64,000 bases of DNA. Source: Sedimentisphaerales bacterium (GTDB lineage Bacteria > Planctomycetota > Phycisphaerae > Sedimentisphaerales > Anaerobacaceae). Positions 2 through 12,391 of this stretch are shown piece by piece. The translations under genes and the position numbers were made by a program. The DNA is taken from the NCBI GenBank assembly GCA_040772485.1, contig JAXGYC010000015.1, forward strand, positions 26,090 to 90,089. The letters run 5' to 3'. The notes under the pieces were generated by a model, which saw nothing but the letters and a program-made list of their open reading frames with translations, searched no databases and was not told the origin of the DNA. Numbering within the stretch: position 1 is the stretch's first letter; every line of letters starts with the position of its first letter.

Positions 2-442
2 ATGGGTTGGTTTGACGACAAAGACACTATGCAGAAGAAGTCCGCGTTGCGAAATGCTGTGGCCGTGATGCTGGCCGACGGCAAGGTGGAGCCGAACGAA
101 GTGGCCACACTGGGCTTCATCTGCAAACGGCTGGGACTGGACCCCAGCGTATTGAATGAGATCGTGGCCAATCCGGGCCAGATCGAGTTCGTCGTCCCTC
201 AGGACCCCACCGAGAAGGTCCGGCAGTTGGCCGACGTGGTGTTCATGATGATGGCCGACGGAAACATCAATCAGAAGGAACTGGATTGCTGCCGGGCGGT
301 GGCGCTGGGTCTCGGATTCCATGCCTCCACGGTCGTGGACGTGATTCTGGGCATTGCCGAAGCAATCAAGAACGGCGTGAACCGCGACCAGACCGTCCGC
401 ATGGCCGAGAACATCCTCGGCAAGAGCCCCTCTCTGGTCTGA
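2..442 (+). CDS. TerB-like (tellurite resistance/DjlA N-terminal fold) protein
   Basis: 146 aa with two A(V/M)MxADG motifs (AVMLADGKVEPNE; MMMADGNINQKE) typical of TerB family. The start lies at the window edge, so upstream context is not visible. Confidence 0.75.
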   Translation: MGWFDDKDTMQKKSALRNAVAVMLADGKVEPNEVATLGFICKRLGLDPSVLNEIVANPGQIEFVVPQDPTEKVRQLADVVFMMMADGNINQKELDCCRAVALGLGFHASTVVDVILGIAEAIKNGVNRDQTVRMAENILGKSPSLV

Positions 443-567
443 GGCTGACGGCGGCGAGAACACGCAATGAAGACGACGGATCTCGGGTTTCGCCACGGGT
501 ATGTGCCCGGGCGGAACCCGCGGTGCGTCCGATGTCACTCTCGGGCCGGCAGGAAAACAGAGGGCCA

Positions 568-1677
568 ATGTCATTACTTCAACCGGGACAGATCATTCGG
601 GACACCTATGAGGTGGAGCGCTACCTGGCGGAGGGCGCGTTTGCGGAGGTCTATCGCGTCAAGCACAGGTTCCTTGGCCGCCAGGCGATGAAGGTGTTCA
701 AACGCACCGGCATGACGCGCGCCGAACTCGATGAGATGATGGCCGAAGCGGTCCTGCTGTCCCGGATCGCCCACCCTAACATCGTGAAGGTATTCGATGC
801 GAACACGGTCGTGACGGAGCGGGGCGAGTGCGGCTACTTCACGATGGAGAACGTTCCCGGTGGCAGTCTGGACAAGTTCTGGCGGTCGCACGGGGCGCAA
901 CTGGTTCCGGTCGAAACCACCGTCGAGATTCTCAAGCAGGTCTGTCGCGGGCTGAGTCTGGCGCACAGCAAGAACCCGCCCATCATTCACCGTGACATCA
1001 AGCCGCAGAACATTCTCATCGGGTACGAGGCCGACGGCCTGCGGGCTCGCATCAGCGACTTCGGTCTGGCCCGGCAGGTCAACCGCCTGACGCTCCTGGC
1101 AACGGCCGCCGGCACGCTGGCGTTCAAACCGCCCGAGGTGTTCACCCAGGCCAAGAGCGACTCCGTGGCCGGCGACATCTGGGCGCTGGGCGTGATGACG
1201 TACATGCTGCTGACCGACAAGATTCCCTTCGAGGTCGACGAACACCTCGGATGGGGCAACGGCCAGGCGCTGCAAACGCCCCCGCCGGCGCCGAGTCTGT
1301 ACAACGTGGAGGCGAACGCCGGCCTGGATCGGATCGTGTTGAAATGCCTTTCGCCCAAGCCGGCCGACCGTTACGCCAGCGCCGCGGAGTTGCTCCAAGC
1401 GCTCGACGCATGGAAACCGGGGGCTTGCGGCCCCGAGCCGTCCGCGTCCTCATCGACGAGCGTATCGCGCTTCTCCAAAAATGCCCTCGGCCCTCTGTCG
1501 GCTGCCGACGAGGAGCAGGCCGAAGCGCTCGTCCGCCGGGCGCTGCGAATCGCCACGGAGCAGGGCAATCTGAACGAGGCGGCGGACATCATGGAGGACG
1601 CGTTCAACAAATGGCCCTCACTGAGAGACAAGTACGCCACGAAGGTCACTCTGTGGCGTCGCGGAATTCAGATGTAG
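568..1677 (+). CDS. Hanks-type Ser/Thr protein kinase with short C-terminal helical tail
   Basis: Start reassigned to ATG 568 (MSLLQPGQ), in frame with track ORF 286..1677. Motifs LAEGAFAEVY, AMK, HRDIKPQN, DFGLA, GTLAFKPPE, DIWALG. No TM segment. Confidence 0.95.
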   Translation: MSLLQPGQIIRDTYEVERYLAEGAFAEVYRVKHRFLGRQAMKVFKRTGMTRAELDEMMAEAVLLSRIAHPNIVKVFDANTVVTERGECGYFTMENVPGGSLDKFWRSHGAQLVPVETTVEILKQVCRGLSLAHSKNPPIIHRDIKPQNILIGYEADGLRARISDFGLARQVNRLTLLATAAGTLAFKPPEVFTQAKSDSVAGDIWALGVMTYMLLTDKIPFEVDEHLGWGNGQALQTPPPAPSLYNVEANAGLDRIVLKCLSPKPADRYASAAELLQALDAWKPGACGPEPSASSSTSVSRFSKNALGPLSAADEEQAEALVRRALRIATEQGNLNEAADIMEDAFNKWPSLRDKYATKVTLWRRGIQM

Positions 1678-1723
1678 ACGAACGCCAAGAGAGGAAAGCC
1701 CTCCACTGAGGAGAAGTCGGGGT

Positions 1724-3349
1724 ATGCTGACCGGGGAATGCCATACGTTGCTGGATATCTGCGGGCCGGACATCTACAGCCGCAACGCCTTTCGATTGCT
1801 CGCAGCGGACGTCGACGCCACCGGACGAAAGATCAAGCGGAACGAGGCGGAACTCCAGTCCGCTCTCGAGGTGGGCGACCTGGCGGAGGAATACGGTGAG
1901 TTTCTCCGGCCCGATCCCCTGCCGAGCCGCGAGGAACTCCTTCAGGCCGGCCGGGTATTGGCAGACGCCAGGCAGCGATTCGTGCACGAGTTTTTCTGGT
2001 TCTGGCCGCTCCAATGGGGCCAAAGCCATGCCGACGAGGCGCTCAAGTGTGTGCAGGCCAACCAGGTGAGCGAAGCGCAGAGGCAATGGGAGGACCTTGC
2101 CGGCGGCGACGGCGAAGCCTCCTGGGCCGCCCGGCACAACCTGGCGATCCTGGGGCACTGGAAGGCGCTGGATCAGGAGCGAGAGATTCTGACGTCGATC
2201 AACCTTGGTGGGTTGCCAGAACAGACCCGCCGGCAGTTCGATTCCCACTGGGACTTCGCCTTTAGGTACTGGGAATCGCTCTGCGCCAACGAGGAATTCT
2301 GGTCGCTTCTGGCCGACCGGATTGGCGCGCTGAACGATCCGCGTCTGACCGTGGGATTTCTGCGCGACTTCTCCCAGTGGCTGCCCATCGCGTTTGACAA
2401 CATCAACGCCGACCTGGCGGTGGCTTATTGCGATCGCCAGATGTACGACCGGGCGCGAGACCACATCCGGATCATGAAGGCGACGAACGCGGGGCACGAC
2501 GACGTCGACGCCAGTCTGCGGCGCGTGACCAGACCGCTCAACGGCCGCATCGACCATGCCATCGAAACGGCCACCTACCAACTGCACAACAACAAGACCG
2601 CCGGAAAGCAGCGCTGCATCGAGCTGTTCAACACGGTCGGTCACATCCTGGATGTTCTCGAGGTGCTGCTCGGCAGCGAATCGCAGGAGTTCACCGAGAC
2701 GTGCGACCGCGTGGCCGAGAGCATGCTCCAATGCCAGGTCGTCTACGGCAACGAGACCCAGGACTGGGCCAGTTCGCTCGAACTGCTGGACACCACGCTG
2801 CAGATCGCCCGCGGAAGCCGGATGCGCGCCCGCCTCGAAGAGAACCTCGAAATCGTGCGCCAGAACCGACAGGGGGACCTCTGCTGGTTCTGCGAAAGCT
2901 GCCCGAAGGAGAACGAACACGCCGTCCCGGTGCCGTTGAGGAAACCCGTCACGTGGGCGGACGTCAAGAGCAATCCGGCGTTGTACCGCGACGCCATCCT
3001 TGTGACCGCCGGACGGTTGCACTTGCAGTTCTCCGGCGGCCTGACCGGTCCGATGGACCCCATGGGAATGATCGTCGTCCCGCAGTTCAGGAGAGCAATC
3101 GACAGCGGAGATATTCACGCCATCGTGCGCGCCGTTGATCCGTACATCCAGGACTCCGTCGAGGTGACGAGCCAGCCGCTGACGATGCTGGTTCCCCGAT
3201 GCCATACGTGTGCGGCCGTCCATGCGGGATCCGCCGCCGGCGGACGCGGAGAACGAGTGAAGACAGGCAACACCAGACCGCTGGACCACCTCCAGTTGTG
3301 GCCCGACGTCGTCAAGGCCAAACAGGACGGATTTCACGTTGTCGCGTAG
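1724..3349 (+). CDS. Hsp70-associated helical protein with degenerate J-domain-like N-terminus and Cys-rich (Zn-binding?) C-terminal region
   Basis: GAGGAG RBS. N-terminus YSRNAFRLLAADVDATGRKIKR...RPDP...EELLQAGRVLADARQR resembles J-domain helices; TPR-like middle; CWFCESC and PRCHTCAAVH motifs. Confidence 0.6.
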   Translation: MLTGECHTLLDICGPDIYSRNAFRLLAADVDATGRKIKRNEAELQSALEVGDLAEEYGEFLRPDPLPSREELLQAGRVLADARQRFVHEFFWFWPLQWGQSHADEALKCVQANQVSEAQRQWEDLAGGDGEASWAARHNLAILGHWKALDQEREILTSINLGGLPEQTRRQFDSHWDFAFRYWESLCANEEFWSLLADRIGALNDPRLTVGFLRDFSQWLPIAFDNINADLAVAYCDRQMYDRARDHIRIMKATNAGHDDVDASLRRVTRPLNGRIDHAIETATYQLHNNKTAGKQRCIELFNTVGHILDVLEVLLGSESQEFTETCDRVAESMLQCQVVYGNETQDWASSLELLDTTLQIARGSRMRARLEENLEIVRQNRQGDLCWFCESCPKENEHAVPVPLRKPVTWADVKSNPALYRDAILVTAGRLHLQFSGGLTGPMDPMGMIVVPQFRRAIDSGDIHAIVRAVDPYIQDSVEVTSQPLTMLVPRCHTCAAVHAGSAAGGRGERVKTGNTRPLDHLQLWPDVVKAKQDGFHVVA

Positions 3350-3373
3350 GGGCGAATGATTATTCGCCCCTAC
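3346..3373. repeat. GTAG-type REP palindrome, family A
   Basis: gtaggggcgaatgattattcgcccctac; its TAG is the stop codon of 1724..3349. Confidence 0.9.
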
Positions 3374-3391
3374 TTCGAGGAACAGACGGCT

Positions 3392-3889
3392 ATGCGAAAA
3401 TCCACGCGATCGAGAAGCAAAAGAGCCAAGGCCCAGAAGAAGAACGAACCTCGCGGCACAACGCAAAGCCGTCACTCGTCGCTGGTCGCTCGTGGCCCGA
3501 GCGACCAGCGACCAGCGACGAGCGACGGGCCGCCAGACGCTCGCGAGTTGCTCGGTCCGCTGGCGGAAATCGCGACCAACGCCTGGCGGCTGAAGGTCCG
3601 CATGATCGACGCCGAGACGGGCGAGCCGAAAGAGCAAACCAGCAAGCTGTACCGCTTCGTCGAGGGACTGTTCCGGGCGCTGGACGAGGCGGGCATTGCG
3701 GTGGTCGACAAAACGGGAAAGCCCTACGACGAAGGCATGCCGGAGAAGGTTATCAGCTTCGAGCAGACGCCGGGCCTGGCCAGAGAGGAAATCATCGATA
3801 CCGTCCGCCCCACCATCCGCTGGAGAGAGCGCCCGCTCTCCAACGGCGAGATCATCGTGGGACTGCCGGTCATTGGTAGGGGCGAATGA
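3392..3889 (+). CDS. GrpE-like nucleotide exchange factor (truncated type)
   Basis: C-terminal GrpE beta-domain pattern GIAVVDKTGKPYDEG...IIDTVRPTIRW...GEIIVG directly upstream of Hsp70. ATG 3392 follows GAGG; the N-terminus carries a repeat-derived segment. Confidence 0.75.
   Translation: MRKSTRSRSKRAKAQKKNEPRGTTQSRHSSLVARGPSDQRPATSDGPPDARELLGPLAEIATNAWRLKVRMIDAETGEPKEQTSKLYRFVEGLFRALDEAGIAVVDKTGKPYDEGMPEKVISFEQTPGLAREEIIDTVRPTIRWRERPLSNGEIIVGLPVIGRGE
3475..3526. repeat. Heptamer (GCGACCA) hairpin tract inside the GrpE-like CDS
   Basis: 3492-3520 matches 15282-15310 at 28 of 29 nt; both encode GPSDQRPAT. Confidence 0.8.
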
Positions 3890-3903
3890 TGATTCGCCCG
3901 TAC
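3876..3903. repeat. REP family A copy
   Basis: gtaggggcgaatgatgattcgcccgtac; contains the GrpE-like stop codon. Confidence 0.9.
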
Positions 3904-3967
3904 TCCTTTCGGCCTCAGAGGACCGAAGGGACCAAAAGGACCTGAGGCGAATGAGAAAGGGATAGAC

Positions 3968-6439
3968 ATGGGCAAACGAAGCACGATCGATTTCGGCATC
4001 GATCTGGGCACGACCAACAGCGCGATTGCCGTTCTTAACGGGGTCACGCCCGAGATCATCAAGAACAACGATGATCTGGATGTCACGTCTTCGGCGGTGC
4101 ACATCAGCAAACACGGCCAACTGCGTGTGGGCAAACGCGCCCGGCAGCAACTGCTCAGCGAAGCGGCGGAAGGCGACGTATACATCGAGTTCAAGCGGCG
4201 GATGGGAACGGACTACGTCTACGCGTTCCGCAGCGCCGCCGTGAACAAGAGCCCCGAGGAACTGTCGGCCGAGGTCCTCAAGAGTCTGTGCGGCGATGCA
4301 CAGCAGCGACTGGGCGAGGAGGTTGCGGCCGCCGTGATCACGGTTCCGGCCGCCTTCGACCAGAAGCAGTGCGCCGCGACCAAGCGGGCGGCCGAAATGG
4401 TCGGCCTGCGACAGTGTCCGCTCGTACAGGAGCCGGTGGCCGCGGCGCTGGCCTACGGTTTCCAGCTCCGGGCCGAGCGGGAATACTGGCTCGTATACGA
4501 CTTCGGCGGCGGCACCTTCGACGCGGCCCTGATGAAAGCCGACGACGGCATGATCGACGTGGTCAACCACGGCGGCGACAATCATCTCGGCGGCGCCGAC
4601 ATCGACTGGGCTATCGTCGAGAAGATCGTCCTGCCGCGAGTGGCCAAGGAATTCAACTTCCCCGAACTGCACCGCAAGAACTCCCGCTGGCGCACGGCGA
4701 TCGCCCAGATCAAACACGCGGTGGAAGTGGCGAAGATCGAGCTGTCGCGAAGCGAGAAGACCTTCCTGGCCGATTGCCTGGTCAAGGACGCAGGCGGCCA
4801 GACGGTGGAGATCGACTTCCCGTTGACGCGCAGCGAAATCACCGCGGTCGCCACGCCGATCATCATGGAATCGGTGGAGATCTGCAAGCGCGTGCTCAAA
4901 GAGAAGGACCTGACGCCCGCCATGGTCAACAAGGTCATCCTGGTCGGCGGGCCGACGCTGGCGCCCTATTTCCGGGACATCCTTTCCGAGCAGCTCGGCG
5001 TCCCGCTCGATCATTCCATCGACCCGCTGACCGTTGTCGCCCGGGGCGCGGCGGTCTTCGCAGGCACGCAGCGGCTGGTCTGCGAATCCGCCACAGGCGG
5101 ACAGGGCAGCTACCGGCTCGAACTGAAATACAACGCCATCGGCCCGGACGAGGATTTCCGCGTCCGTGGCAAGGTCGCCGCCGAGGGCGAGGACCTCACG
5201 GGGTTCACGATCCGCTTCTCGAACCGGGCGACGGGCTGGGACAGCGGGAAGATCCCTCTGAAGTCCGAGGGGACCTTCAAGGCCGATCTGCTGGCGGAGG
5301 CGGGCACGAGGAACACGTTCGCCATCCAACTGGCGGACGCGAAGGGTACGATCCAGAAAACGGTTCCCGAGGAGTTGGTGTACACCGTCGGTACGGCTCC
5401 TTCTCAACAGACGGTGATCAATTCGCTGGGCGTGGCGCTTCGCGACAACGAGTTCGACATGCTGCTGGAGAAGGGCACGCCGCTTCCGGCCAAACAGATG
5501 CGGGTGTACCGCACGGCCAGGGCACTGCACAAGGAAGACTCGGGAGAGATGCTGAGCATTCCCATCGTCGAAGGCGAAAATCCCAAGGCCGACCGCAACC
5601 GCCTCCAGGCCGTGTTGGCAGTGAAGGGCAACCAGATTCGCCGCGACATTCCTGCGCAATCCGAGGTCGAGGTGACGTTGATGATGGATGAGGATCGCAT
5701 CATCCGCGCGCGAGCCTACATCACCATGCTGGACGAGGAATTCGAGGTCGTCATCACCCCGGAAACCCGGACGCCCGACGCGGCGCGTCTCAAGCGCGAG
5801 CTGAACGAAGAGAAGCAACGGCTGCGTGAGCTGGCCAACAAGGGCGGGCCTTCCACCGCCGTGGCCCAGCAACAGGCGAAGATCGCCAACCTCGAAGAGC
5901 TGGTCGAGACGGCGCAGGGCGACCCCGACGCCGCCAACAAGGCCGAGACGCGGCTTCTCGAACTCAAGGCCAGCCTCGACCGGCTGGAAAACGAGTGCAA
6001 CTGGCCCAAGATGGTGCAGGACGCCCGCGCGCAATTGGACGAACTCGACAACGTCGTGTCGCAATTCGGCCGTGACGATCCGGAATTCGCCCGGCGCGCT
6101 GGCGAGCTGCGAACCGAAGTGGAGCAGCTCATCGAAGAGCACCGCGACGACCGTCTGCCCAAGAAGCTCCAGCAGGTGCAGGCGTTGCGCAACGAGGTGC
6201 TGATGTCGAGGGATGAATTCTGGGTCTCGGTGTTCGAGAAGGCCAAGAGCAACAGGACCCAGATGAAGGACCAGACCATGGCGACCCGGCTGATCAGCCA
6301 GGGTGACGCGTGCCTCCAGCGCGGAGACATTCAGCAACTGCGTCAGGTCGTCGCCCAACTGATGGGTCTTCTGCCGGCGAACGTCCAGGACGAAGTCCGC
6401 GACGGATACGAAAGTGGCGTAATCGAGATCGCGCGTTGA
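3968..6439 (+). CDS. Hsp70 family protein (atypical 823 aa DnaK paralogue with long helical C-terminus)
   Basis: GIDLGTTNS, EPVAAALAYG, VYDFGGGTFD, GDNHLGGADID, ILVGG signatures. Too long and divergent to be housekeeping DnaK. Confidence 0.95.
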   Translation: MGKRSTIDFGIDLGTTNSAIAVLNGVTPEIIKNNDDLDVTSSAVHISKHGQLRVGKRARQQLLSEAAEGDVYIEFKRRMGTDYVYAFRSAAVNKSPEELSAEVLKSLCGDAQQRLGEEVAAAVITVPAAFDQKQCAATKRAAEMVGLRQCPLVQEPVAAALAYGFQLRAEREYWLVYDFGGGTFDAALMKADDGMIDVVNHGGDNHLGGADIDWAIVEKIVLPRVAKEFNFPELHRKNSRWRTAIAQIKHAVEVAKIELSRSEKTFLADCLVKDAGGQTVEIDFPLTRSEITAVATPIIMESVEICKRVLKEKDLTPAMVNKVILVGGPTLAPYFRDILSEQLGVPLDHSIDPLTVVARGAAVFAGTQRLVCESATGGQGSYRLELKYNAIGPDEDFRVRGKVAAEGEDLTGFTIRFSNRATGWDSGKIPLKSEGTFKADLLAEAGTRNTFAIQLADAKGTIQKTVPEELVYTVGTAPSQQTVINSLGVALRDNEFDMLLEKGTPLPAKQMRVYRTARALHKEDSGEMLSIPIVEGENPKADRNRLQAVLAVKGNQIRRDIPAQSEVEVTLMMDEDRIIRARAYITMLDEEFEVVITPETRTPDAARLKRELNEEKQRLRELANKGGPSTAVAQQQAKIANLEELVETAQGDPDAANKAETRLLELKASLDRLENECNWPKMVQDARAQLDELDNVVSQFGRDDPEFARRAGELRTEVEQLIEEHRDDRLPKKLQQVQALRNEVLMSRDEFWVSVFEKAKSNRTQMKDQTMATRLISQGDACLQRGDIQQLRQVVAQLMGLLPANVQDEVRDGYESGVIEIAR

Positions 6440-6448
6440 CGGGAGCAT

Positions 6449-7306
6449 ATGTCGGTGACAATGGTCTATGCCGGCCTGACGGACGTCGGGCGAATGCGAG
6501 AGACGAACGAGGATGCGTTCGGCATTGATCGTCAGCTCGGGCTGATGGTCGTCGCAGACGGTCTGGGCGGTCATCCGGCCGGCGAGGTAGCATCGACGTT
6601 CGTCGTCGAGGCGCTGCCGCGCCAACTGGCGATGGGACGTGCCGCCGGCCTGGAGGATGCTCGGGGCCCCGCGCAACTCCTGAGCCAGTCGTTGCTGATT
6701 GTCGCCGAACAGCTTCGTGACATGGGACGTGCGAGGCCGGAACAGGAAGGCATGGGCGCGACAGTCGTGGCCGCCCTGGTCAGCGATGCGGCGCTTCTGG
6801 TCGCCCATCTCGGCGACAGCCGGGCCTACCGGCTTCGCGATAGCCAACTGGAACTGCTGACACGAGACCACAACCTCGGCAATGCCCTGCGCGACGAGGG
6901 CGTGGTCCACGATGGGGCCGAGGACATCCCGGAATACCACGTGCTGCGCCGGTTCGTGGGGATGGACCAGCCGCTGCCGCCGGACGTCGGGACGTTCGAC
7001 CTCCGGCAGCGCGACCGCTATCTGCTGTGCACCGACGGCCTGACGAACATGCTCAGCGAAGCGGAGATCTCCGAGATCCTGGGCGCCGATGCGCCCTGCG
7101 AGGAGCTTTGTCGCCAGATGGTGTCGCGGGCGAACGAGGCCGGCGGATACGACAACATCACCGCGATCGTGGCCCAGGTGCAGTCCGTGCGCGCCGACCA
7201 GGCATCGCCCGGCAAGGTGGCACAGACGATCGCTTCGTTGGACCCGGAGGAATCACTCAGGGAAGGGCGAATGAGTATTCGCCCCTACTGCACGGGGCAT
7301 CATTGA
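6449..7306 (+). CDS. PP2C/PPM-family Ser/Thr protein phosphatase
   Basis: TDVGRMRETNED, VVADGLGGH, MGAT, HLGDSRAY, LLCTDGLT, GGYDNIT motifs. Confidence 0.95.
   Translation: MSVTMVYAGLTDVGRMRETNEDAFGIDRQLGLMVVADGLGGHPAGEVASTFVVEALPRQLAMGRAAGLEDARGPAQLLSQSLLIVAEQLRDMGRARPEQEGMGATVVAALVSDAALLVAHLGDSRAYRLRDSQLELLTRDHNLGNALRDEGVVHDGAEDIPEYHVLRRFVGMDQPLPPDVGTFDLRQRDRYLLCTDGLTNMLSEAEISEILGADAPCEELCRQMVSRANEAGGYDNITAIVAQVQSVRADQASPGKVAQTIASLDPEESLREGRMSIRPYCTGHH
7262..7288. repeat. REP family A copy (in PP2C 3' end)
   Basis: gaagggcgaatgagtattcgcccctac, translated as GRMSIRPY. Confidence 0.8.
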
Positions 7307-7320
7307 AAGGATAAGCGGAT

Positions 7321-8430
7321 ATGGAACCCGAAGCCGGTATCATGCTGGTTTGGTCGCTGGCCGCGATGGAAGCCCAGGCCCTGGGATGGTCGCAGATCGA
7401 GCCGGCCCATCTGTTGTGTGCGATCCTGAAGTTCGCAGAACTGGATGGGACCGATCTGGAACGCCTCGGTCAGACCAATGAGAATCTCGGCAACCTGGCG
7501 CAGGAACACCAGGACTTGAAGGCGCATCTCGACGACCCGTGGGGAATCACGGTGCCCGAGGTTTCCACCCGACTGCGGCGGGCCCTGCGACGACCGGGCG
7601 AAGCTTGCCCTGAGCGCAACCGAAGGGGCCCGCGAGCGCAGTCCGCCACAGGCGGACCGGGAGGGATGGTCCATCGCAGTGACGCCGCACGCGAGGCGTT
7701 TCGGGCCGCGCAGGGCGCGGCCGAACAGGCGGGCCGCCAGCGCCTGGGAGTCGTCGATCTGCTGGGCGCGCTTATGAACGGGTCCGATGAATGGATTCGC
7801 CGCGGACTGGAGCAGCAGGGAATCCCGACGACATCGCAACTGGCCCAGCGCAATGAGGCGATGGAGCAGTGGGCCGACGTGCTGGTCCCGCTGGCACCGT
7901 CCGGCCGGGTCGACGAGGCCGAGAGAAAGCGGATTCTTGCCGATCCTGCGGTGCGCGTGCTGGCCGACGCGTTGGCCAATCCCGGCGCGCCGGGACGGCC
8001 GTGCCTGCTGATTCATGGACCCGACCGCACGGGACATGACGTTCTGATCGATCTGCTCGATCGACGCGGTGAGCGGAAGCCTCCGAAGGTCATCCAGGTG
8101 AACAGCCGGGCGTTGCTGGAACGTCTTTCCCGAGATGGGAACGTCGCCGCCGTCGGGTTTCTGGATTTGCTCTGCGACGAGTCAAATCAGAAGACCATCT
8201 GGTTCTTCGACTCGTTACATCGGTACCTGAGCGAGGAGCTGGCCCCAACCGCCTTCCGGCTGCGTTTTGTCCAGTGGCTCAAGCAGACGAACAGCCGATT
8301 TCTTTTCGCCGTCTCGCAGAGCCAGTACGACAAACTGGCCCAACGAAATTTTGACTGGAAGAACACCTTCCAGCAGATCTGGATTCACAGCCCTTCGGCC
8401 CGCCCTCGCCAGGTGGGTATGGAGTTGTGA
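7321..8430 (+). CDS. Clp N-terminal domain protein with degenerate AAA+ (ClpA/B D1-like) module
   Basis: EAQALGWSQIEPAHLLCAIL and AEQAGRQRLGVVDLLGALM Clp-N repeats. Walker A position reads LLIHGPDRTGHD; Walker B position reads IWFFDSLH. Confidence 0.7.
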   Translation: MEPEAGIMLVWSLAAMEAQALGWSQIEPAHLLCAILKFAELDGTDLERLGQTNENLGNLAQEHQDLKAHLDDPWGITVPEVSTRLRRALRRPGEACPERNRRGPRAQSATGGPGGMVHRSDAAREAFRAAQGAAEQAGRQRLGVVDLLGALMNGSDEWIRRGLEQQGIPTTSQLAQRNEAMEQWADVLVPLAPSGRVDEAERKRILADPAVRVLADALANPGAPGRPCLLIHGPDRTGHDVLIDLLDRRGERKPPKVIQVNSRALLERLSRDGNVAAVGFLDLLCDESNQKTIWFFDSLHRYLSEELAPTAFRLRFVQWLKQTNSRFLFAVSQSQYDKLAQRNFDWKNTFQQIWIHSPSARPRQVGMEL

Positions 8431-8447
8431 CGCTGTGGAAGATGAGA

Positions 8448-8550
8448 GTAAAGATCAAACAGCAAAATGGAAAGATGAGGAACTCATCCGCCGAAGGCGG
8501 ATACCGCCATTTTGATTCTTCCCTTTTGATCTTTGCTTTTTGCCTTTTGT
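8448..8550. repeat. AAAGATCAAA / TTTGATCTTTG inverted tract
   Basis: Same family as 32346-32451; purine-rich arm then pyrimidine-rich arm; may also act as a terminator/pause. Confidence 0.65.
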
Positions 8551-8573
8551 TGTAGTTTGCAGTGAGGTGATCC

Positions 8574-11500
8574 GTGTTCACAGAGAAAGCACAAGCGATC
8601 GTTTCCATGGCCAAAGATCGGGCCTACACGCTCGGACGGAATTGCATAGACGTCGAGAGCCTGCTGGCGGCCATCGCCTCCGACCGCCAGGCGTGTGTGC
8701 GGCTGGCGGAGTGCCTGACCGCCGGCAACGTCGCCGATCTGCGGCGGCGCTGCCCGCAGTTCGAGTCGCCGGGGTCGTGTCCGGGCACGATGCCGCCCGA
8801 TGAAGCGGTGCGTTTGCTCCTCGACAAGGCTTGCGAACTGGCGGGCGGGGAGGGAGTCCCCGACCGGACGCATCCGGGACTGGTGGGGTTGCCTCACCTG
8901 ATCTGTGCGGCCGCGATGTCGGTCGAGGTGGCAAGTCTGCTCGGCGATCCGATCGCGCCCATCGGCTCCAAACAGGCGATGAGTCTGCTGGCCCGCTGGG
9001 TGATGGACAGCGATACGAGCCTGTCGCTGGGCGAGCTGACCGGCCAGCTTCGCGGGCTGCGGGCGGCCCTTCTGGCGAGAGTATTCGGACAGGATCACGC
9101 GGTCCATGCCCTGGTCGAAGGGCTCTACAATGCGCAGGTGACCGCGGGCGCCGACCACGATCGCCGGCAGCCAATCGCCACGTTCGTCTTTGCCGGACCT
9201 CCCGGGGTCGGCAAGACCCACATGGCCGAACTGTGCGCCGCGCATCTGAAGCGTCCCTTCAAGCGATTCGACATGACCGCCTATAGCGACCACCAGGCCG
9301 ACAACCAGCTCGTCGGTTTTGCGCCGTCCTTTCAGGCCGCCAAGCCCGGCCTCCTGACGGGATTCGTCAAGCAGAATCCCAACGCCATCCTGCTGTTCGA
9401 CGAGATCGAGAAGGCGCATCTGAATACGATGCAACTGTTCTATCAGATCCTCGACGCCGGCCGACTGCACGACAAATTCGACGACGAGGACGTGTGCTTC
9501 CGCGACACGATCATCATCTTCACGACGAACGCCGGGCGGAGCCTCTACGAGAATCCCAACGCCAGCGGGATCTCCGCGGTCAACGCCGACTATCACAAGC
9601 GCACGATCCTCAGCGCGCTGGCGAACGAGAAAAATCCCACGACCGGCCAGCCGGCCTTTCCGCCGGCCATTTGCAGCCGGCTCGGGCAGGGCTATCCGCT
9701 GATGTTCAATCATTTGGGCATCAACGAGCTGGAACGCATCGCCGAGACGGAAATGACGCACACCGAGGCCCTGCTCGAACGGCAGTACTTCAAGACGTTT
9801 CGACACGATCCGATCCTGCCGATCCTGCTCGTGCTGCGATGCGGCGCGAGCATCGACGCCCGGCAGTTGCGCAGCGAGGTGGAGCGATTCGTCAAATCGG
9901 AACTGTTCAAGTTCTGTAGCCTCTACGAGTCGCAGCGCGTCGAAAAAGTGCTCGAGCAGATCGACGAGGTGCTCTTCACTGTCGATCCGGCCGAGATTCG
10001 GAATCACCCTGCGACGCAGAAACTCCTGTTCAATCCGGACAAATCGACTGTGCTCCTGGTGGCGGATGAGGCCTTCGCCTCGCGTTGTCGGGCGGCCCAT
10101 CCGGAGTTCGAGTGGATCGCGGCCGCGACGAAGGAAGAAGTGGTCAGTCAACTGGCTGCCCATGAAGTCAACATGATCCTGCTGGACTTGTGGGTCTCGA
10201 CGGGACACGATCGGGCCGGCGTAGGGGCGAATGATTACTCGCCCCTACCGAGCGCGGGCCGGATCGATCATCTCCCCTTGTCGGCCAGGGCCTTCGACAA
10301 CGGCCGGACGATCCTCCAGACGATTCGCAAGCGTTTCTCCGACGTCCCCGTCTACCTGCTGTCGTTCCAGACGCAACAGGCCGACGGCGCGACAAAGACC
10401 GTTTGCGTGGATGATCGGTACGACGCCACTGAGCGCCCCCACGACACGAAAAGGCCCCGGCCGATCGACGAAGAGCTGTTTCTCGCCTGCGTCCGAGCCG
10501 GCGGCGCCCGAGGGATGATCGCCACCGAGTACGACCGATCCTCAAAAACCGACCCCGGCGCGCCGGGATTCGCGGCGGCCCTTCAGGGGATTCTGCTTCG
10601 CCTGTTCCGCGAGAAGGTGGCCGCCGATCTCGCGCGGCAGCGCCAGTGCCTGGAGTTCGACACGGTCGCCCGCCTGAACGAGTCGGTTCGTCACCTGGGG
10701 ATCTCAACTCGCGGATTCCGGCTTCAGCGTGTCATCGAGGCCGAAGACGTGGTCGGCCTGGTCAGCGACGTGGAACGTCCTTCCACCCGCTTCGACGAAG
10801 TCTTCGGCGCGACCGCCGCGAAGAAATCGCTGGGCTTCGTGGTCGACTGGCTGAAGAACCGCAAGCGTTACGCGGGACTGGGGCTGCGCCCGCCCAAGGG
10901 CATTCTCCTGAGCGGCCCGCCCGGAACCGGCAAGACCATGCTCGCCCGGGCGGTCGCCGGAGAGTCGAATTGTGCGTTCATGGAGGAATCCGGCGGCAAC
11001 TTCATCACCAAGTGGCAAGGCAGCGGTCCGGAAAACGTGCGGAAGCTGTTCCAGCGGGCACGCAAGTACGCGCCCGCGATCGTATTCATCGACGAGATCG
11101 ACGCGGTGGGCAAGACGCGCAGCGGCGCAACCACCAGCGAGTCCCGCGAGACAACGCTCAACACCCTCCTGACGGAAATGGACGGGTTCGGGGCGACGGC
11201 GGACGCCCCGGTGATCGTGCTGGCGGCGACGAACCTGGCCGAGAAGCTCGACCCGGCGCTGAAGCGGCGTTTCGACCGCGAGATCAGGGTCGACGAGCCG
11301 GACCGGTCCGCTCGCCTGGCGTACCTGCAACAGGCGATCGGAAAGCTCTCGAAATCCGAGGTCGGCGCCGAGACTCTCGAAGCGATCGCCAACCAGAGCG
11401 TATACATGACCATCGCCGACCTGGCCCGCGTCGTCCAGGAAGCCGGCGTGATGGCGGCGCTGGCCGGATCGACCATCACCGACAGCATCCTGCTCGAGGC

Positions 11501-12146
11501 GTTCGAGAAGCAGCGCATGGGCGAAGCCCTGCCCTGCACGAACCAGGCAAAGCTGCTCCGCATCGCCCGCCACGAGGCGGGACACACGCTGGTGGCGTGG
11601 AAGAGCGGCACGCCGGTCCATCAGGTCACGATCGTCGGCCGCGGCGGGGCCGGCGGTTACATGGAACGCAAACACGACGACGACCGCGACCTGCAAACCA
11701 AGGAAGATCTGCTTCGTGATATTCGCATCTCCATGGCGGGTCGCGCGGCGGAACTGGTCTGCTATGGCCCGGACGCGGGTCTGAGCATCGGCGTCGGCGC
11801 GCCCCGAGCCATCGGCGGTGGAGGCGGCGACTTGCCCAACGCATCGCAGAAGGCGATCCAGATGGTTCGCGTCTACGGCATGGACGAGGAGATCGGACAA
11901 TTGGCGCTCGATGAGCTCTTCGTCGAAAACAGCCAGCGCCCGCTCGCCGAACAGACCCTTATGCTGGCCGAGAGGATCGTGTCGGAACAACTGGACGTCG
12001 CCAGGAAGCTCATCGAGACCCATCGCGACGAATTCGATCGCCTGGTCGATGCGCTGGTCAAACACAACCGGCTGGATGAGGCCCAACTGAACGAGCTGCT
12101 CGGCGAACAGCTCCCGCTCGTCTCTGAGGTCTCTTCAGTCCCTTAG
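8574..12146 (+). CDS. Soluble multidomain AAA+ protease: Clp-N + ClpA/B D2-type AAA + receiver-like domain + FtsH-type AAA + peptidase M41
   Basis: GTG start after GAGGTG. VFGQDHAV, GPPGVGKT, LLFDEIEKAH, LDAGRL, IIIFTTNAG (Clp D2); VLLVAD...ILLDL...PVYLLS (REC-like); GPPGTGKTMLARAVAGE, IVFIDEIDAVG, LLTEMDGF, VLAATN...LDPALKRRFDR (FtsH AAA); HEAGH Zn motif. No TM helices. Confidence 0.9.
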   Translation: MFTEKAQAIVSMAKDRAYTLGRNCIDVESLLAAIASDRQACVRLAECLTAGNVADLRRRCPQFESPGSCPGTMPPDEAVRLLLDKACELAGGEGVPDRTHPGLVGLPHLICAAAMSVEVASLLGDPIAPIGSKQAMSLLARWVMDSDTSLSLGELTGQLRGLRAALLARVFGQDHAVHALVEGLYNAQVTAGADHDRRQPIATFVFAGPPGVGKTHMAELCAAHLKRPFKRFDMTAYSDHQADNQLVGFAPSFQAAKPGLLTGFVKQNPNAILLFDEIEKAHLNTMQLFYQILDAGRLHDKFDDEDVCFRDTIIIFTTNAGRSLYENPNASGISAVNADYHKRTILSALANEKNPTTGQPAFPPAICSRLGQGYPLMFNHLGINELERIAETEMTHTEALLERQYFKTFRHDPILPILLVLRCGASIDARQLRSEVERFVKSELFKFCSLYESQRVEKVLEQIDEVLFTVDPAEIRNHPATQKLLFNPDKSTVLLVADEAFASRCRAAHPEFEWIAAATKEEVVSQLAAHEVNMILLDLWVSTGHDRAGVGANDYSPLPSAGRIDHLPLSARAFDNGRTILQTIRKRFSDVPVYLLSFQTQQADGATKTVCVDDRYDATERPHDTKRPRPIDEELFLACVRAGGARGMIATEYDRSSKTDPGAPGFAAALQGILLRLFREKVAADLARQRQCLEFDTVARLNESVRHLGISTRGFRLQRVIEAEDVVGLVSDVERPSTRFDEVFGATAAKKSLGFVVDWLKNRKRYAGLGLRPPKGILLSGPPGTGKTMLARAVAGESNCAFMEESGGNFITKWQGSGPENVRKLFQRARKYAPAIVFIDEIDAVGKTRSGATTSESRETTLNTLLTEMDGFGATADAPVIVLAATNLAEKLDPALKRRFDREIRVDEPDRSARLAYLQQAIGKLSKSEVGAETLEAIANQSVYMTIADLARVVQEAGVMAALAGSTITDSILLEAFEKQRMGEALPCTNQAKLLRIARHEAGHTLVAWKSGTPVHQVTIVGRGGAGGYMERKHDDDRDLQTKEDLLRDIRISMAGRAAELVCYGPDAGLSIGVGAPRAIGGGGGDLPNASQKAIQMVRVYGMDEEIGQLALDELFVENSQRPLAEQTLMLAERIVSEQLDVARKLIETHRDEFDRLVDALVKHNRLDEAQLNELLGEQLPLVSEVSSVP
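10221..10248. repeat. REP family A copy (in frame in AAA protease)
   Basis: gtaggggcgaatgattactcgcccctac = VGANDYSPL. Confidence 0.9.
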
Positions 12147-12165
12147 GTCCTTCAAAACCCAAGGG

Positions 12166-12343
12166 CGGGTGGCAGCCTCAAACGCGCCAGCGTTTGGGGA
12201 TGGTGGAACGCGAAGGAAGTCCCGCGACGCCCGTACGGCCCACGCAGGGGCGAATGATTATTCGCCCGTACTCCGCCATCCCTAAGGCTTCGCTGCGTTG
12301 CGCTCCGTTCGGCTTTGCTCAGGACAAGCTTTGAGGCTGCCAC
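12166..12343. repeat. Composite inverted-repeat element (GGGTGGCAGCCTCAA arms) enclosing other repeat units
   Basis: Arms cgggtggcagcctcaaa / tttgaggctgccac; inner gggatgg/ccatccc; holds a REP-A copy and a ttcggctttgctcaggacaagctt unit. Confidence 0.8.
12244..12271. repeat. REP family A copy
   Basis: gcaggggcgaatgattattcgcccgtac inside the composite element 12166..12343. Confidence 0.85.
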
Positions 12344-12362
12344 GCGGCGGATCCGGCAATTC

Positions 12363-12391
12363 TTGTGCTCTGCGCCGACTCATGCTATCTT
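12363..12391 (+). promoter_or_regulatory. Possible sigma70 promoter for the lipoprotein/DUF748 pair
   Basis: TTGTGC-N17-TATCTT with extended -10 TG. Confidence 0.4.

What the first reader, a model, noticed from the sequence alone, without database searches (positions are those of the whole stretch)
2..12146. Candidate undescribed system: kinase/phosphatase-switched Hsp70 chaperone team coupled to a Clp-FtsH hybrid protease
Seen: eight co-directional, closely spaced genes in the order TerB-like, Hanks kinase, J-like/Zn protein, GrpE-like, 823-aa Hsp70, PP2C, ClpN with degenerate AAA, and ClpN-ClpD2-REC-FtsH/M41. Established: DnaK/DnaJ/GrpE hand substrates to ClpB-type AAA+ motors, and Ter-linked kinase + PP2C modules (e.g. 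TerY-P) act in stress and anti-phage defence. Inference: every part here is a divergent paralogue rather than the housekeeping gene, so this looks like a dedicated module that senses a cue, toggles phosphorylation, and captures, unfolds and degrades specific (possibly phage or self) proteins. I do not recognise this combination as a named system. The operon may continue upstream of base 1.
Basis: partly seen in the sequence, partly recalled or inferred. Interest (0 to 1): 0.88.

Follow-up and report, generated by a model that had tools for sequence, protein, structure and literature searches.

The report
Kinase-linked specialised Hsp70 operon with protease
The eight genes are real, and five of them belong to a widespread bacterial operon I found described nowhere: a protein kinase, an unusual Hsp70 chaperone with two odd helper proteins, and a Clp-type unfolding or cutting enzyme, which in this planctomycete is an unusual Clp/FtsH hybrid protease.

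Summary
Eight co-directional, closely spaced genes at 2-12146 encode TerB, an intact Hanks kinase, a 541-aa J-like/solenoid/Zn-ribbon protein (g3), a mini GrpE-like protein (g4), an 823-aa Hsp70, an intact PP2C, a Clp N-domain + dead D1 protein (g7), and a 1190-aa soluble fusion (g8).

g8 carries a live Clp-D2 module, a probable receiver-like domain, a live FtsH-type AAA module and an M41 protease with HEAGH.

Only part of this is a conserved system. In 87 loci holding g3 relatives the order is kinase (62/65), g3, g4 (67/69), Hsp70 (55/56) and a membrane-anchored TPR protein (41/46). A ClpN protein or two-ring Clp ATPase often follows (19/33).

TerB (0/87), PP2C (5/87) and the FtsH fusion (2/87) are additions of this planctomycete clade. 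The core occurs in Planctomycetota, Verrucomicrobiota, Anaerolineaceae and, without a linked kinase, Armatimonadota.

g3 relatives form about 1,545 clusters. The four whose source names were retrieved are all called "hypothetical protein". I found no paper on the operon.

The Hsp70 is not housekeeping DnaK and lacks the canonical linker; g3 lacks HPD.

Most likely function (inferred): a phosphorylation-controlled, client-specific Hsp70 module feeding a Clp-type protease. Defence is not supported.

The parts
2..442 (+). g1: TerB-like protein, 146 aa. An accessory of this clade only, not part of the conserved core.
   Evidence: Pfam TerB E 2.4e-6, 28.3 bits against a cut-off of 24.4. Weak NCBIfam hit to the TerB-like region of DjlA. 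Present only in the 89-98% identical relatives L001-3 and L015-16, and in 0/87 other loci. RNA contigs join it to the kinase gene.
568..1677 (+). g2: Hanks-type Ser/Thr kinase, about 369 aa (alternative start 532). Catalytic motifs are intact and a helical C-terminal tail of about 90 aa follows.
   Evidence: Pkinase E 2.1e-42. VAIK-type Lys, HRDIKPQN and DFG read directly in the translation. Distant orthologues align from residue 95 of the long ORF. A kinase lies upstream of g3 in 62/65 loci.
1724..3349 (+). g3: 541-aa signature protein. It has an N-terminal J-like four-helix unit without HPD, the invariant EFFWFWP motif, an alpha-solenoid (about aa 100-385), and a C-terminal beta/helix domain with two CxxC pairs. 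It is the probable client-selecting co-chaperone.
   Evidence: No Pfam, NCBIfam or PADLOC hit. 1,545 clusters at E<=1e-3. AF2 model with pLDDT 94.9. Foldseek returns only TPR/ARM-like hits with E>=0.02. hhalign against the DnaJ J-domain: E 1.2e-4, probability 55%. HPD in 2/108 members. Long relatives are fused to Sel1, HEAT, Arm or TPR repeats.
3392..3889 (+). g4: about 165-aa divergent GrpE-like protein, the probable nucleotide-exchange factor. Its variable N-terminus carries a palindromic insert.
   Evidence: Pfam GrpE matched by 6/11 family members, best E 9.6e-4. Best natural PDB hit is GrpE 4ANI, E 0.024-0.064, over the C-terminal domain. Follows g3 in 67/69 loci.
3968..6439 (+). g5: 823-aa Hsp70. 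The ATPase domain is intact. An insert of about 105 aa replaces the canonical NBD-SBD linker. An SBD-beta domain follows, then a long helical C-terminus ending in a conserved tail.
   Evidence: PF00012 E 1.4e-78. DnaK equivalog 275.6 bits against a cut-off of 822.55. In 58 family members (median 827 aa), ATPase motifs are present in 57-58 and the canonical linker in 0. Conserved C-terminal RGYGS-type tail. Present in 55/56 loci.
6449..7306 (+). g6: PP2C Ser/Thr phosphatase, 285 aa, with metal-binding motifs intact. A clade-specific addition.
   Evidence: NCBIfam Stp1/IreP 211 bits (cut-off 230), PP2C_2 E 6e-16. Found in only 5/87 other loci. An RNA contig bridges the Hsp70/PP2C junction.
7321..8430 (+). 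g7: 369-aa Clp N-domain plus catalytically dead D1-type AAA module. Walker A reads GPDRTGHD and Walker B reads FFDSLH.
   Evidence: Clp_N E 1.1e-3. hhalign of the g7 profile against a two-ring Clp (L007): g7 6-353 aligns to Clp 8-384, probability 86.6%, E 4.5e-6. Best PDB hit is ClpB1 D1, E 0.012.
8431..8573 (+). AT-rich 143-bp gap with a terminator-like hairpin at 8496-8508. It may be an internal terminator, attenuator or promoter ahead of g8. A rhomboid gene sits at this position in L004 and L008.
   Evidence: rhomboid by Pfam.
8574..12146 (+). g8: 1190-aa soluble fusion protein with no TM segment. The sub-domains are listed in the rows below.
   Evidence: Pfam and NCBIfam hits. FtsH_fam 349.7 bits against a cut-off of 600. 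No hydrophobic segment. Orthologues only in L001-4, L008 and L015-16.
8574..9050 (+). g8 aa 1-159: helical N-domain with Clp_N-like repeat motifs. Unconfirmed.
   Evidence: No Pfam Clp_N hit even at E<=10. hhalign against g7 repeat 2: E 0.026, probability 2%.
9051..9923 (+). g8 aa about 160-450: ClpA/B D2-type AAA+ module. Walker A is GPPGVGKT and Walker B is LLFDEIE. It lacks the LGF/IGL ClpP-docking tripeptide.
   Evidence: AAA_2 E 8e-32. ClpA model aa 146-444, E 9.7e-45. Motifs read. LGF is present in the L007 and L012 Clp proteins but not here.
9999..10688 (+). g8 aa 476-705: alpha/beta domain, probably a divergent receiver (CheY-like) fold. The Asp of LLDLW is conserved. A strain-variable insert of 35-45 aa carries an in-frame REP element at 10220-10252.
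   Evidence: Response_reg is the top sub-threshold Pfam hit in 5/5 orthologues, best E 9.9e-4. Single-sequence AF2 gives pLDDT 50 with a beta-alpha-beta pattern. PDB, hhalign and Foldseek tests were not significant.
10776..12098 (+). g8 aa about 735-1175: FtsH-type AAA module plus M41 Zn-metalloprotease. The AAA module has Walker A GPPGTGKT, Walker B VFIDEID, a KWQG pore loop and RRFDR arginine fingers. The protease has HEAGH and a downstream Glu.
   Evidence: AAA E 1.3e-50, Peptidase_M41 E 3.6e-27, FtsH_fam aa 734-1172. Motifs are invariant in five orthologues.
3345..3377 (.). REP-like palindromic element between g3 and g4. Further copies start at 3875, 7260, 10220, 12243 and 14038.
   Evidence: the repeat finder family D1. 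These copies cause assembler joints in RNA contigs.

Best explanation
This is the local version of a widespread, unnamed operon built around a specialised Hsp70. The version here is soluble and has extra parts.

The conserved core has five members, often followed by a sixth:

1. A Hanks Ser/Thr kinase.
2. g3, a J-like but HPD-less adaptor. Its solenoid, Zn-ribbon or repeat domains would choose the client.
3. g4, a mini GrpE-like exchange factor.
4. An Hsp70 of about 825 aa with an intact ATPase, a peptide-binding domain and no canonical interdomain linker.
5. In most lineages, a membrane-anchored TPR protein.
6. Often a Clp N-domain protein or a two-ring, ClpP-type Clp ATPase.

Proposed mechanism (inferred):

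- g3 captures a specific client and holds it for the Hsp70.
- g4 resets the Hsp70 by nucleotide exchange.
- The engaged client, or the chaperone complex itself, is passed to a ClpN-bearing AAA+ machine that unfolds and degrades it.
- The kinase gates one of these steps by phosphorylating the adaptor, the Hsp70, the client or the receiver-like domain. Here the linked PP2C reverses that.

In this planctomycete clade several things have changed:

- The TPR anchor is lost. The closest relatives, including this window, have also lost the rhomboid gene.
- The two-ring Clp is replaced by a pair. g7 is an N-domain plus a dead D1. g8 is a live D2 fused through a receiver-like domain to a live FtsH-type AAA module and an M41 protease. 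Proteolysis is therefore built in rather than delegated to ClpP.
- TerB is a local accessory.

Shown: gene content, motif integrity, co-conservation and expression. Inferred: the physical hand-off, the kinase targets and the client.
For: Domains and intact catalytic motifs.

g3:
- J-like without HPD.
- High-confidence solenoid model.
- Relatives fused to Sel1, HEAT, Arm or TPR repeats, as expected of client-binding adaptors.

g4: GrpE-like.

Hsp70 family: ATPase motifs in 57-58 of 58 members, canonical linker in 0 of 58.

Co-conservation, in the same order and on the same strand:
- kinase 62/65
- g4 67/69
- Hsp70 55/56
- TPR protein 41/46
- ClpN or Clp 19/33

Spread across phyla:
- Planctomycetota and Verrucomicrobiota.
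- Anaerolineaceae (full cluster) and Armatimonadota (no linked kinase).

The downstream partner is always proteolysis-related and often carries a ClpN domain:
- two-ring Clp with an LGF loop
- ClpD2-FtsH-M41
- CHAT protease fused to Clp_N

g7 equals Clp N plus a dead D1.

Metatranscriptome contigs cover the cluster and bridge the TerB/kinase, kinase/g3, g3/g4 and Hsp70/PP2C junctions.

From established knowledge:
- DnaK/DnaJ/GrpE deliver sigma-32 to FtsH.
- DnaK cooperates with ClpB.
- The McsB kinase marks substrates for the ClpC N-domain.
Against: - No experiment bears on any member of the family.
- The J-like unit lacks HPD and the Hsp70 lacks the DnaK linker. Canonical J-stimulated ATPase coupling may therefore not occur, and g3 could be a client or regulator rather than a co-chaperone.
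- The GrpE, J-domain and REC assignments rest on weak statistics (E values of 1e-4 to 0.06).
- A Clp partner was seen in only 19 of 33 loci with enough downstream sequence. The protease is therefore not obligatory.
- g8 is separated from g7 by a 143-bp gap with a terminator-like hairpin, so it may be transcribed separately.
- RNA evidence comes from assembled metatranscriptome contigs of related strains (90-99% identity). These may contain DNA.
- No client, and no link between kinase and target, can be deduced from sequence.
Confidence: 0.55

Rival explanations
1. Envelope or stress signalling device. The ancestral system sits at the membrane, through a TPR protein with a TM segment and an external SH3 or LysM domain, and through a TM-anchored g3. 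It controls a transcription regulator by chaperone-assisted regulated proteolysis. The window encodes a cytosolic derivative. This is a more specific form of the best explanation and names a regulator as the client.
For: - TPR partners have TM helices and, in L012 and L013, external SH3 or LysM peptidoglycan-binding domains.
- 111 of 150 g3 relatives have a hydrophobic segment.
- A rhomboid gene lies inside the operon in L004 and L008.
- ECF-type sigma genes lie beside or inside the cluster in L005, L067, L085, L088 and L095, and a sigma-54 activator lies beside it in L008.
- Precedent from established knowledge: DnaKJE plus FtsH control sigma-32.
Against: - None of the window's eight proteins has a TM segment.
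- No sigma or anti-sigma gene is linked here.
- Regulator genes appear in a minority of loci, and they are of different kinds.
Confidence: 0.2
2. Anti-phage or conflict system. The kinase senses infection, and the Hsp70/protease module destroys phage or host proteins, as in abortive infection.
For: - The kinase resembles PADLOC defence kinases (mad6, PD-T4-6), and the g8 AAA modules resemble IetA and DolB.
- CHAT caspase-like proteases, typical of conflict systems, are linked in L013, L068, L073 and L095.
- One g3 relative lies in an ICE-like region with ArdC and RadC genes.
- Hsp70-containing conflict systems have been predicted (PMC7159879).
Against: - The PADLOC hits are generic domain matches. 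g3, g4, the Hsp70 and g7 hit nothing.
- Flanking genes here are oxidoreductases, an ABC transporter and a methyltransferase. In L012 they are glycosidases and central metabolism genes.
- No relatives in 2.9 million viral contigs.
- Gene order is stable across phyla, unlike the patchy and shuffled pattern typical of defence islands.
- TerB and PP2C, the basis of the Ter/TerY-P analogy, are not conserved, and there is no vWA protein.
Confidence: 0.13
3. A protective stress chaperone or disaggregase set with no dedicated client. It would be a second general Hsp70 system, as in bacteria with large proteomes, that happens to sit next to protease genes.
For: - Bacteria with complex proteomes carry many DnaK derivatives (PMC11019930, PMC13580251).
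- Hsp70/Hsp100 cooperation in disaggregation is well established.
- TerB suggests a link to stress.
Against: - g3 lacks HPD and carries variable protein-binding repeats, which argues for specific clients.
- The tight linkage with a kinase (62/65 loci) is not a feature of general chaperone systems.
- The Clp partners lack a ClpB-type M-domain call and carry a ClpP-type LGF loop.
Confidence: 0.1
4. Chance neighbourhood of unrelated housekeeping genes, or the host's ordinary dnaK locus.
For: Chaperone and protease genes are common, and planctomycete genomes are large.
Against: - The same order and strand recur in 55-67 independent loci at 29-60% identity, across at least four phyla.
- The Hsp70 scores far below the DnaK equivalog cut-off.
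Confidence: 0.02

Closest known systems
DnaK-DnaJ-GrpE (KJE) triad, and its hand-off of sigma-32 to FtsH in E. coli
   Same: - An Hsp70 with an intact ATPase and a substrate-binding domain.
- A J-fold partner and a GrpE-fold partner encoded alongside it.
- An FtsH-type AAA plus M41 protease as the plausible end point.
   Different: - The Hsp70 is about 200 aa longer, has an insert in place of the DVLLLD linker, and scores one third of the DnaK cut-off.
- The J-like unit has no HPD.
- The GrpE-like protein is about 120-165 aa.
- The FtsH-like part is soluble and fused to a Clp D2 ring.
- A kinase is an integral member of the operon.
Specialised bacterial Hsp70 pairs (HscA/HscB, HscC/DjlC)
   Same: A paralogous Hsp70 is encoded next to its own dedicated J-type partner for a narrow set of clients.
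   Different: - Those partners keep HPD.
- They have no linked kinase, no GrpE-like gene, and no TPR anchor or Clp partner.
- No NCBIfam model for them is met here.
McsB kinase / ClpC N-domain / ClpP degradation tagging in Firmicutes
   Same: A kinase is encoded with a Clp-type unfoldase whose N-domain receives substrates. Phosphorylation acts as the gate to degradation.
   Different: - McsB is an arginine kinase of a different fold, whereas the kinase here is a Hanks Ser/Thr kinase.
- No Hsp70 is involved in the McsB system.
- Whether ClpN reads phosphorylated residues here is untested.
TerY-P triad (TerY vWA + PP2C + Ser/Thr kinase) and Ter stress clusters
   Same: A kinase and a PP2C lie in one cluster, with a TerB-family gene next to them.
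   Different: - No vWA/TerY protein and no other ter genes are present.
- TerB and PP2C are absent from nearly all other versions of the operon (0/87 and 5/87).
Hsp70-containing predicted conflict systems (GAP1-N2 GTPase + Hsp70 + GrpE + DnaJ-FNIII; Kaur et al. 2020, PMC7159879)
   Same: A non-housekeeping Hsp70 and GrpE lie in a multi-gene operon, sometimes with a kinase, a PP2C or a caspase-like protease nearby.
   Different: - No GTPase, tubulin, FNIII or effector-associated domains are present here.
- The co-chaperone families are different.
DjlA (TerB-like domain fused to a J-domain)
   Same: It links a TerB-fold module to Hsp70 co-chaperone function. g1 gives a weak hit to that region of DjlA.
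   Different: Here TerB is a separate small protein and occurs only in one clade. DjlA has a true HPD J-domain and a TM anchor.

Membership tests
Housekeeping DnaK (TIGR02350 / PRK00290 equivalog) | Full-length score above the curated equivalog cut-off | tested here: not met
   275.6 bits against 822.55, and 268 against 648. Only the NBD (aa 9-366) aligns well.
Housekeeping DnaK (TIGR02350 / PRK00290 equivalog) | Conserved hydrophobic NBD-SBD linker (D-V-L-L-L-D type) | tested here: not met
   0 of 58 Hsp70s of this operon family carry the motif. The window protein has an insert of about 105 aa there.
Hsp70 superfamily (active ATPase) | Phosphate-1 DxGTT, DxGGGTxD, EPxAAA and adenosine VGGxT motifs | tested here: met
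   Present in the window protein and in 57-58 of 58 family members. PF00012 E 1.4e-78.
J-domain proteins | Four-helix J fold | tested here: inconclusive
   - hhalign against the E. coli DnaJ J-domain: probability 55%, E 1.2e-4, columns 21-88 against 5-66.
- Weak PDB J-domain hits at the same place, E 0.2-1.2.
- The helix pattern of the AF2 model is compatible.
J-domain proteins | HPD tripeptide between helices II and III | tested here: not met
   Absent in the window protein. Present in 2 of 108 aligned relatives.
GrpE nucleotide-exchange factors (PF01025) | Match to the GrpE profile or fold, including the C-terminal beta domain | tested here: inconclusive
   - The window protein itself has no Pfam hit.
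- 6 of 11 family members match PF01025, best E 9.6e-4.
- The family profile's best natural PDB hit is GrpE 4ANI, E 0.024-0.064, over the C-terminal domain.
- hhalign against E. coli GrpE aligns the same region, E 0.034.
Hanks-type Ser/Thr kinases (active) | Pkinase domain with catalytic Lys, HRD...N and DFG | tested here: met
   E 2.1e-42. Motifs read.
PP2C phosphatases (active) | PP2C fold with the metal-binding Asp motifs | tested here: met
   PP2C_2 E 6e-16. Stp1/IreP model 211 bits, just under the equivalog cut-off of 230. NED, DGxGG, GDSR, TDG and DN motifs read.
FtsH (TIGR01241 equivalog) | N-terminal transmembrane anchor | tested here: not met
   No hydrophobic segment anywhere in g8. 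The match starts at FtsH model position 155.
FtsH (TIGR01241 equivalog) | Classic-clade AAA module plus M41 domain with HEXXH and a third ligand | tested here: met
   AAA E 1.3e-50 and M41 E 3.6e-27. HEAGH and the downstream Glu are invariant in five orthologues. The whole-protein score of 349.7 is below the cut-off of 600.
Hsp100/Clp two-ring ATPases (ClpA/B/C) | N-domain, active D1 and active D2 in one chain | tested here: not met
   The parts are split between two proteins. g7 has an N-domain and a D1 with ruined Walker A and B motifs. g8 has only a D2 (AAA_2). Intact two-ring versions occupy this position in L007 and L012.
Response-regulator receiver domain (PF00072) | Profile match above threshold, an acidic pocket with a phospho-acceptor Asp, and a conserved Lys | tested here: inconclusive
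   - Top Pfam hit in 5/5 orthologues but below threshold: best E 9.9e-4; window protein 15.6 bits against 30.2.
- The Asp in LLDLW is conserved, and no KP-type Lys is present.
- AF2 single-sequence pLDDT is 50.
- Foldseek was uninformative.
TerY-P defence triad | TerY-like vWA protein together with a PP2C and a kinase | tested here: not met
   No vWA domain in any of the ten proteins scanned.
Known or candidate defence systems (PADLOC-DB v2) | System-specific models hit by the core proteins | tested here: not met
   g3, g4, the Hsp70 and g7 give 0 hits. The kinase, AAA modules, PP2C and TerB give only generic domain-level hits.

The most novel reading that the evidence does not exclude
A new class of Hsp70 machine that works without the two hallmarks of the canonical cycle: no HPD in the J-like partner and no DnaK-type interdomain linker. 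In this reading a Hanks kinase writes a phospho-Ser/Thr mark on the client or adaptor, and Clp N-domains read it. Those N-domains ride on interchangeable proteases (ClpP-type Clp, FtsH-M41, CHAT caspase). The result would be a bacterial 'phospho-degron plus chaperone' pathway, analogous to pArg-ClpC but built on Ser/Thr phosphorylation and an Hsp70.
Probability: 0.15. Interest if true: 0.9.

Novelty: new variant of a known kind. Interest (0 to 1): 0.74.

Why it matters
Bacterial Hsp70 derivatives other than DnaK, HscA and HscC are largely unstudied. [quoted passage not shown]

This operon gives that dark matter a concrete, testable unit with four useful properties:

- It is a conserved five- to six-gene module found in at least four phyla.
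- Its signature protein forms about 1,500 sequence clusters, and the four members whose source names were retrieved are all annotated as hypothetical.
- Its Hsp70 and J-like partner both lack the elements thought essential for J-domain/Hsp70 allostery, so it could show another way of driving an Hsp70.
- It ties Ser/Thr phosphorylation to chaperone-assisted proteolysis in bacteria.

The g7/g8 pair is also a new protease architecture. It is a soluble FtsH-type protease stacked on a Clp D2 ring, with a dead-D1 partner subunit.

Tried and rejected

- Exact look-up of the window's Hsp70 found nothing.
- The Ter-systems paper of Anantharaman et al. 2012 could not be retrieved. Whether it mentions a TerB-Hsp70 neighbourhood was not checked.

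Analyses that led nowhere:

- BLASTP of g7 against g8 was uninformative.
- phmmer of g7 and of the g8 mid-region against PDB gave nothing.
- The g8 mid-domain as a receiver was tested four ways without significance: hhalign against CheY, a profile against PDB, single-sequence AF2 with pLDDT 50 and Foldseek on that model. Only the relaxed Pfam scan pointed to Response_reg.
- The g8 N-terminus as Clp_N was not confirmed.
- Whole-chain Foldseek of the confident g3 model returned only generic TPR/ARM solenoids.

Readings rejected:

- TerB, PP2C and g9/g10 as parts of the conserved system.
- Continuation of the operon upstream of base 1.
- A phage origin.
- Membership of TerY-P or of any PADLOC system.

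Six literature searches found no description of this operon.

Full report
**1. What is in the window**

Positions 2-12146 carry eight + strand ORFs. Their codon-position GC pattern is typical of real genes in this 64% GC genome, with GC3 of 0.73-0.83. Gaps between the genes are 9-143 bp.

Two starts need correcting. Orthologue alignments put the kinase start at 568 (or 532), not 286, and the g4 start at 3392, not 3356.

Pfam and NCBIfam confirm the following:

- TerB: 28.3 bits against a cut-off of 24.4.
- An intact Hanks kinase: E 2e-42.
- An Hsp70: PF00012 E 1e-78.
- A PP2C: Stp1-type model, 211 bits.
- In the 1190-aa protein g8: a ClpA/B D2-type AAA_2 module (aa 199-331), a classic AAA module (777-907) and Peptidase_M41 (995-1175).

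g3 (541 aa) and g4 have no hit in Pfam, NCBIfam or PADLOC. None of the eight proteins has a transmembrane segment.

**2. The subtler domain calls**

*g4 (GrpE-like).* A profile of 8-11 orthologues finds GrpE (4ANI) as its best natural PDB hit over the C-terminal domain, with E 0.024-0.064. Pfam GrpE is matched by 6 of 11 family members, best E 9.6e-4. I accept "GrpE-like" as probable.

*g3 (J-like adaptor).* A search of 1.84 billion representatives found 1,545 clusters with E<=1e-3, of which 606 had E<=1e-30. The conserved part is residues 1 to about 400. With that alignment AlphaFold gave pLDDT 94.9. The model shows:

- a small N-terminal helical unit;
- an alpha-solenoid from about residue 100 to 385, which hits only TPR/ARM-like structures in Foldseek, E>=0.02;
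- a C-terminal beta/helix domain with two conserved CxxC pairs.

It also gives weak PDB J-domain hits at the same place. HPD is absent, and only 2 of 108 relatives have it. Long relatives carry Sel1, HEAT, Arm or TPR repeats, which is the usual look of a client-binding adaptor.

*g7 (ClpN plus dead D1).* It aligns end to end with the N-domain and D1 of a two-ring Clp ATPase, with hhalign probability 86.6% and E 4.5e-6. Its best PDB hit is ClpB1 D1. Walker A and B are ruined: GPDRTGHD and FFDSLH.

*g8 (soluble fusion).*

- Both of its AAA modules are intact. The pore loop, arginine fingers, HEAGH and the third zinc ligand are invariant in five orthologues.
- Its middle domain (aa 476-705) is probably a divergent receiver fold. 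Response_reg is the top Pfam hit in all five orthologues, but only below threshold (best E 9.9e-4). All other tests were inconclusive.
- A Clp_N domain at its N-terminus is not confirmed.

**3. What is conserved**

A genome scan seeded with the Hsp70 found syntenic loci in these MAGs:

| MAG label | Hsp70 identity |
|---|---|
| Pirellulales / Phycisphaerae | 92-94% |
| Phycisphaerae / Sedimentisphaerales | 74-75% |
| Methylacidiphilum, Verrucomicrobiaceae | 46-48% |

I excluded near-identical relatives and counted only loci with enough flanking DNA. This left 87 loci:

| Gene, relative to g3 | Loci with it |
|---|---|
| Kinase upstream | 62/65 |
| g4 after g3 | 67/69 |
| Hsp70 | 55/56 |
| TPR protein after the Hsp70 | 41/46 |
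| ClpN-only protein or full two-ring Clp after that | 19/33 (four more have a Clp upstream) |
| PP2C anywhere | 5/87 |
| FtsH-type module | 2/87 |
| TerB | 0/87 |

Further points on the conserved unit:

- The TPR proteins are membrane-anchored. Some carry external SH3 or LysM domains.
- 111 of 150 g3 relatives have a hydrophobic segment.
- A rhomboid gene sits between g7 and g8 in the 74-75% relatives.
- Named sources place g3 relatives in Anaerolineaceae, where the full cluster is present, and in Armatimonadota. There they are annotated "hypothetical protein".
- In the Armatimonadota locus the downstream partner is a CHAT protease fused to a Clp_N domain, and no kinase gene is called beside g3.
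- The two-ring Clp partners keep an LGF tripeptide at the position of the ClpP-docking loop. g8 has lost it.
- The 58 Hsp70s of the family are 817-849 aa long. They have intact ATPase motifs, none has the canonical DnaK linker, and all share a conserved C-terminal tail.

**4. Boundaries and context**

- Upstream of TerB, close relatives have a 540-bp gap and then NikR and MetX/MetW genes.
- Downstream, g9 (a lipoprotein-like ORF) and g10 (DUF748/AsmA-like) are not kept in the 74-75% relatives.
- Further downstream lie oxidoreductases, a sugar-isomerase-like gene, an ABC transporter, a methyltransferase, a PIF1-like helicase and an M29 peptidase. This is not a defence island.
- No g3 relative was found in 2.9 million viral contigs.

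**5. Expression**

The sequence occurs in anaerobic-digester, wastewater and activated-sludge metagenomes. Metatranscriptome contigs from four runs, at 90-99% identity, cover most of the cluster. They bridge the TerB/kinase, kinase/g3, g3/g4 and Hsp70/PP2C junctions.

This fits co-transcription of g1-g7. It is not proof, because assembled RNA libraries can contain DNA. The g7/g8 gap is AT-rich and has a terminator-like hairpin, so g8 may be separately controlled.

**6. Interpretation**

*Shown:*
- A conserved operon of kinase, J-like adaptor, GrpE-like protein, long Hsp70 and TPR anchor, frequently followed by a ClpN-bearing unfoldase or protease.
- In this clade, a soluble variant with TerB, PP2C, a dead-D1 subunit and a Clp-D2/FtsH-M41 fusion.

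*Inferred:*
- g3 selects a client.
- The Hsp70 and g4 work on that client.
- It is then handed to the Clp-type machine for degradation.
- The kinase gates the process, and here the PP2C reverses it.

Precedents come from established knowledge. DnaKJE delivers sigma-32 to FtsH, DnaK cooperates with ClpB, and McsB marks substrates for the ClpC N-domain.

The missing HPD and the missing linker mean the coupling must differ from the textbook cycle. That is the most interesting open point.

The rivals, with their estimated probabilities, are:

- envelope-linked regulated proteolysis of a regulator, a specific form of the main model (0.20);
- a defence or conflict system (0.13);
- a general stress chaperone set (0.10);
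- chance adjacency (0.02).

**7. Comparison with known systems and novelty**

The cluster fails the tests for housekeeping DnaK, true J-domain proteins (no HPD), FtsH (no membrane anchor, score below cut-off), two-ring Clp, TerY-P (no vWA protein) and all PADLOC systems.

Six full-text searches found no description of it. The nearest texts are Kaur et al. 2020 on other Hsp70-containing predicted systems (PMC7159879) and a 2026 review that calls bacterial DnaK derivatives unexplored "dark matter" (PMC13580251).

I rate it a new variant of a known kind, namely a specialised Hsp70 system. Its mechanism is unusual and testable, and it comes with a new protease architecture.

**8. Limits**

- The large homology database was unavailable.
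- Only one representative search and two structure predictions were possible.
- The loci sampled were chosen through g3 or the Hsp70, so the counts describe the neighbourhood of those genes, not of kinases or Clp genes in general.
- The taxonomy of most metagenome loci is unknown.
- No function has been tested.

Noticed in passing
window 3345-3377, 3875-3907, 7260-7292, 10220-10252, 12243-12275, 14038-14070: A REP-like palindrome (GTAGGGGCGAATGATTATTCGCCCCTAC) sits at gene junctions. It also lies in frame inside coding sequence. One copy is in the variable loop of g8's receiver-like domain; it is present here and in L003 but absent in L001. Other copies cover the stop codon of g4 and the 3' tail of the PP2C ORF. 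In relatives it is also inserted in frame in g7 and g4. These copies cause false joints in RNA assemblies.
   Followed up: partly
window 3469-3528 and 15282-15310: A second palindromic element (…CGACCAGCGACCAGCGACG…) is translated as part of g4's variable N-terminus. A 97% identical copy lies inside the DUF748 gene.
   Followed up: no
window 6380-6439 (Hsp70 C-terminus); 58 loci: The Hsp70s of this operon family end in a conserved tail, …LLP…RGYGSxhhx. It may be a docking motif, for example for the TPR partner, by analogy with the EEVD motif that docks on TPR proteins in eukaryotes. Untested.
   Followed up: no
L095:17170-19593 (Armatimonadota); also L013:2405-5389, L068:4980-5840, L073:5193-5972: A CHAT (caspase-like) protease fused to Clp_N repeats lies downstream of the g3/g4/Hsp70/TPR/ECF-sigma set. 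CHAT relatives lie upstream of three other loci. This suggests ClpN is the module that couples the system to interchangeable proteases.
   Followed up: partly
L012:12106-17011; L044 and L075; L029:1651-4416: Copy-number variants of the operon. Anaerolineaceae has two tandem Hsp70 paralogues. L044 and L075 have two tandem g3 genes. L029 has kinase-PP2C-kinase ahead of g3.
   Followed up: no
window 8431-8573: An AT-rich 143-bp gap between g7 and g8 holds a terminator-like hairpin at 8496-8508. The 74-75% relatives carry a rhomboid protease gene at this position.
   Followed up: partly
window 12315-13958 and 13976-19507: g9 is a Pfam-less ORF with a lipoprotein-like signal (…LSAGC). g10 is a 1843-aa DUF748/AsmA/YhdP-like protein. 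Both follow the cluster only in the closest relatives.
   Followed up: partly
window 19504-19559: A 14-nt tandem repeat (GTGAAGTTTGAAGT, about four copies) lies just upstream of, or overlaps the start of, a Gfo/Idh/MocA oxidoreductase gene.
   Followed up: no
window 10742-11208 and 12143-12609: RNA-contig depth spikes up to 264x in the first stretch. That stretch encodes the conserved FtsH-type AAA segment, so the spike probably reflects cross-mapping from other organisms' ftsH genes. The second stretch (up to 39x) holds the REP element at 12243-12275, which may explain its spike. Neither should be read as expression of this locus.
   Followed up: no
L010:8453-13647: One g3 relative lies in an ICE-like region with HTH_17, AAA_25, RadC and ArdC-N genes. 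A 505-aa Pfam-less gene lies upstream of it. On the opposite strand, downstream, are a ClpN-like gene, a TPR-like gene and a fragment of an Hsp70 gene.
   Followed up: no
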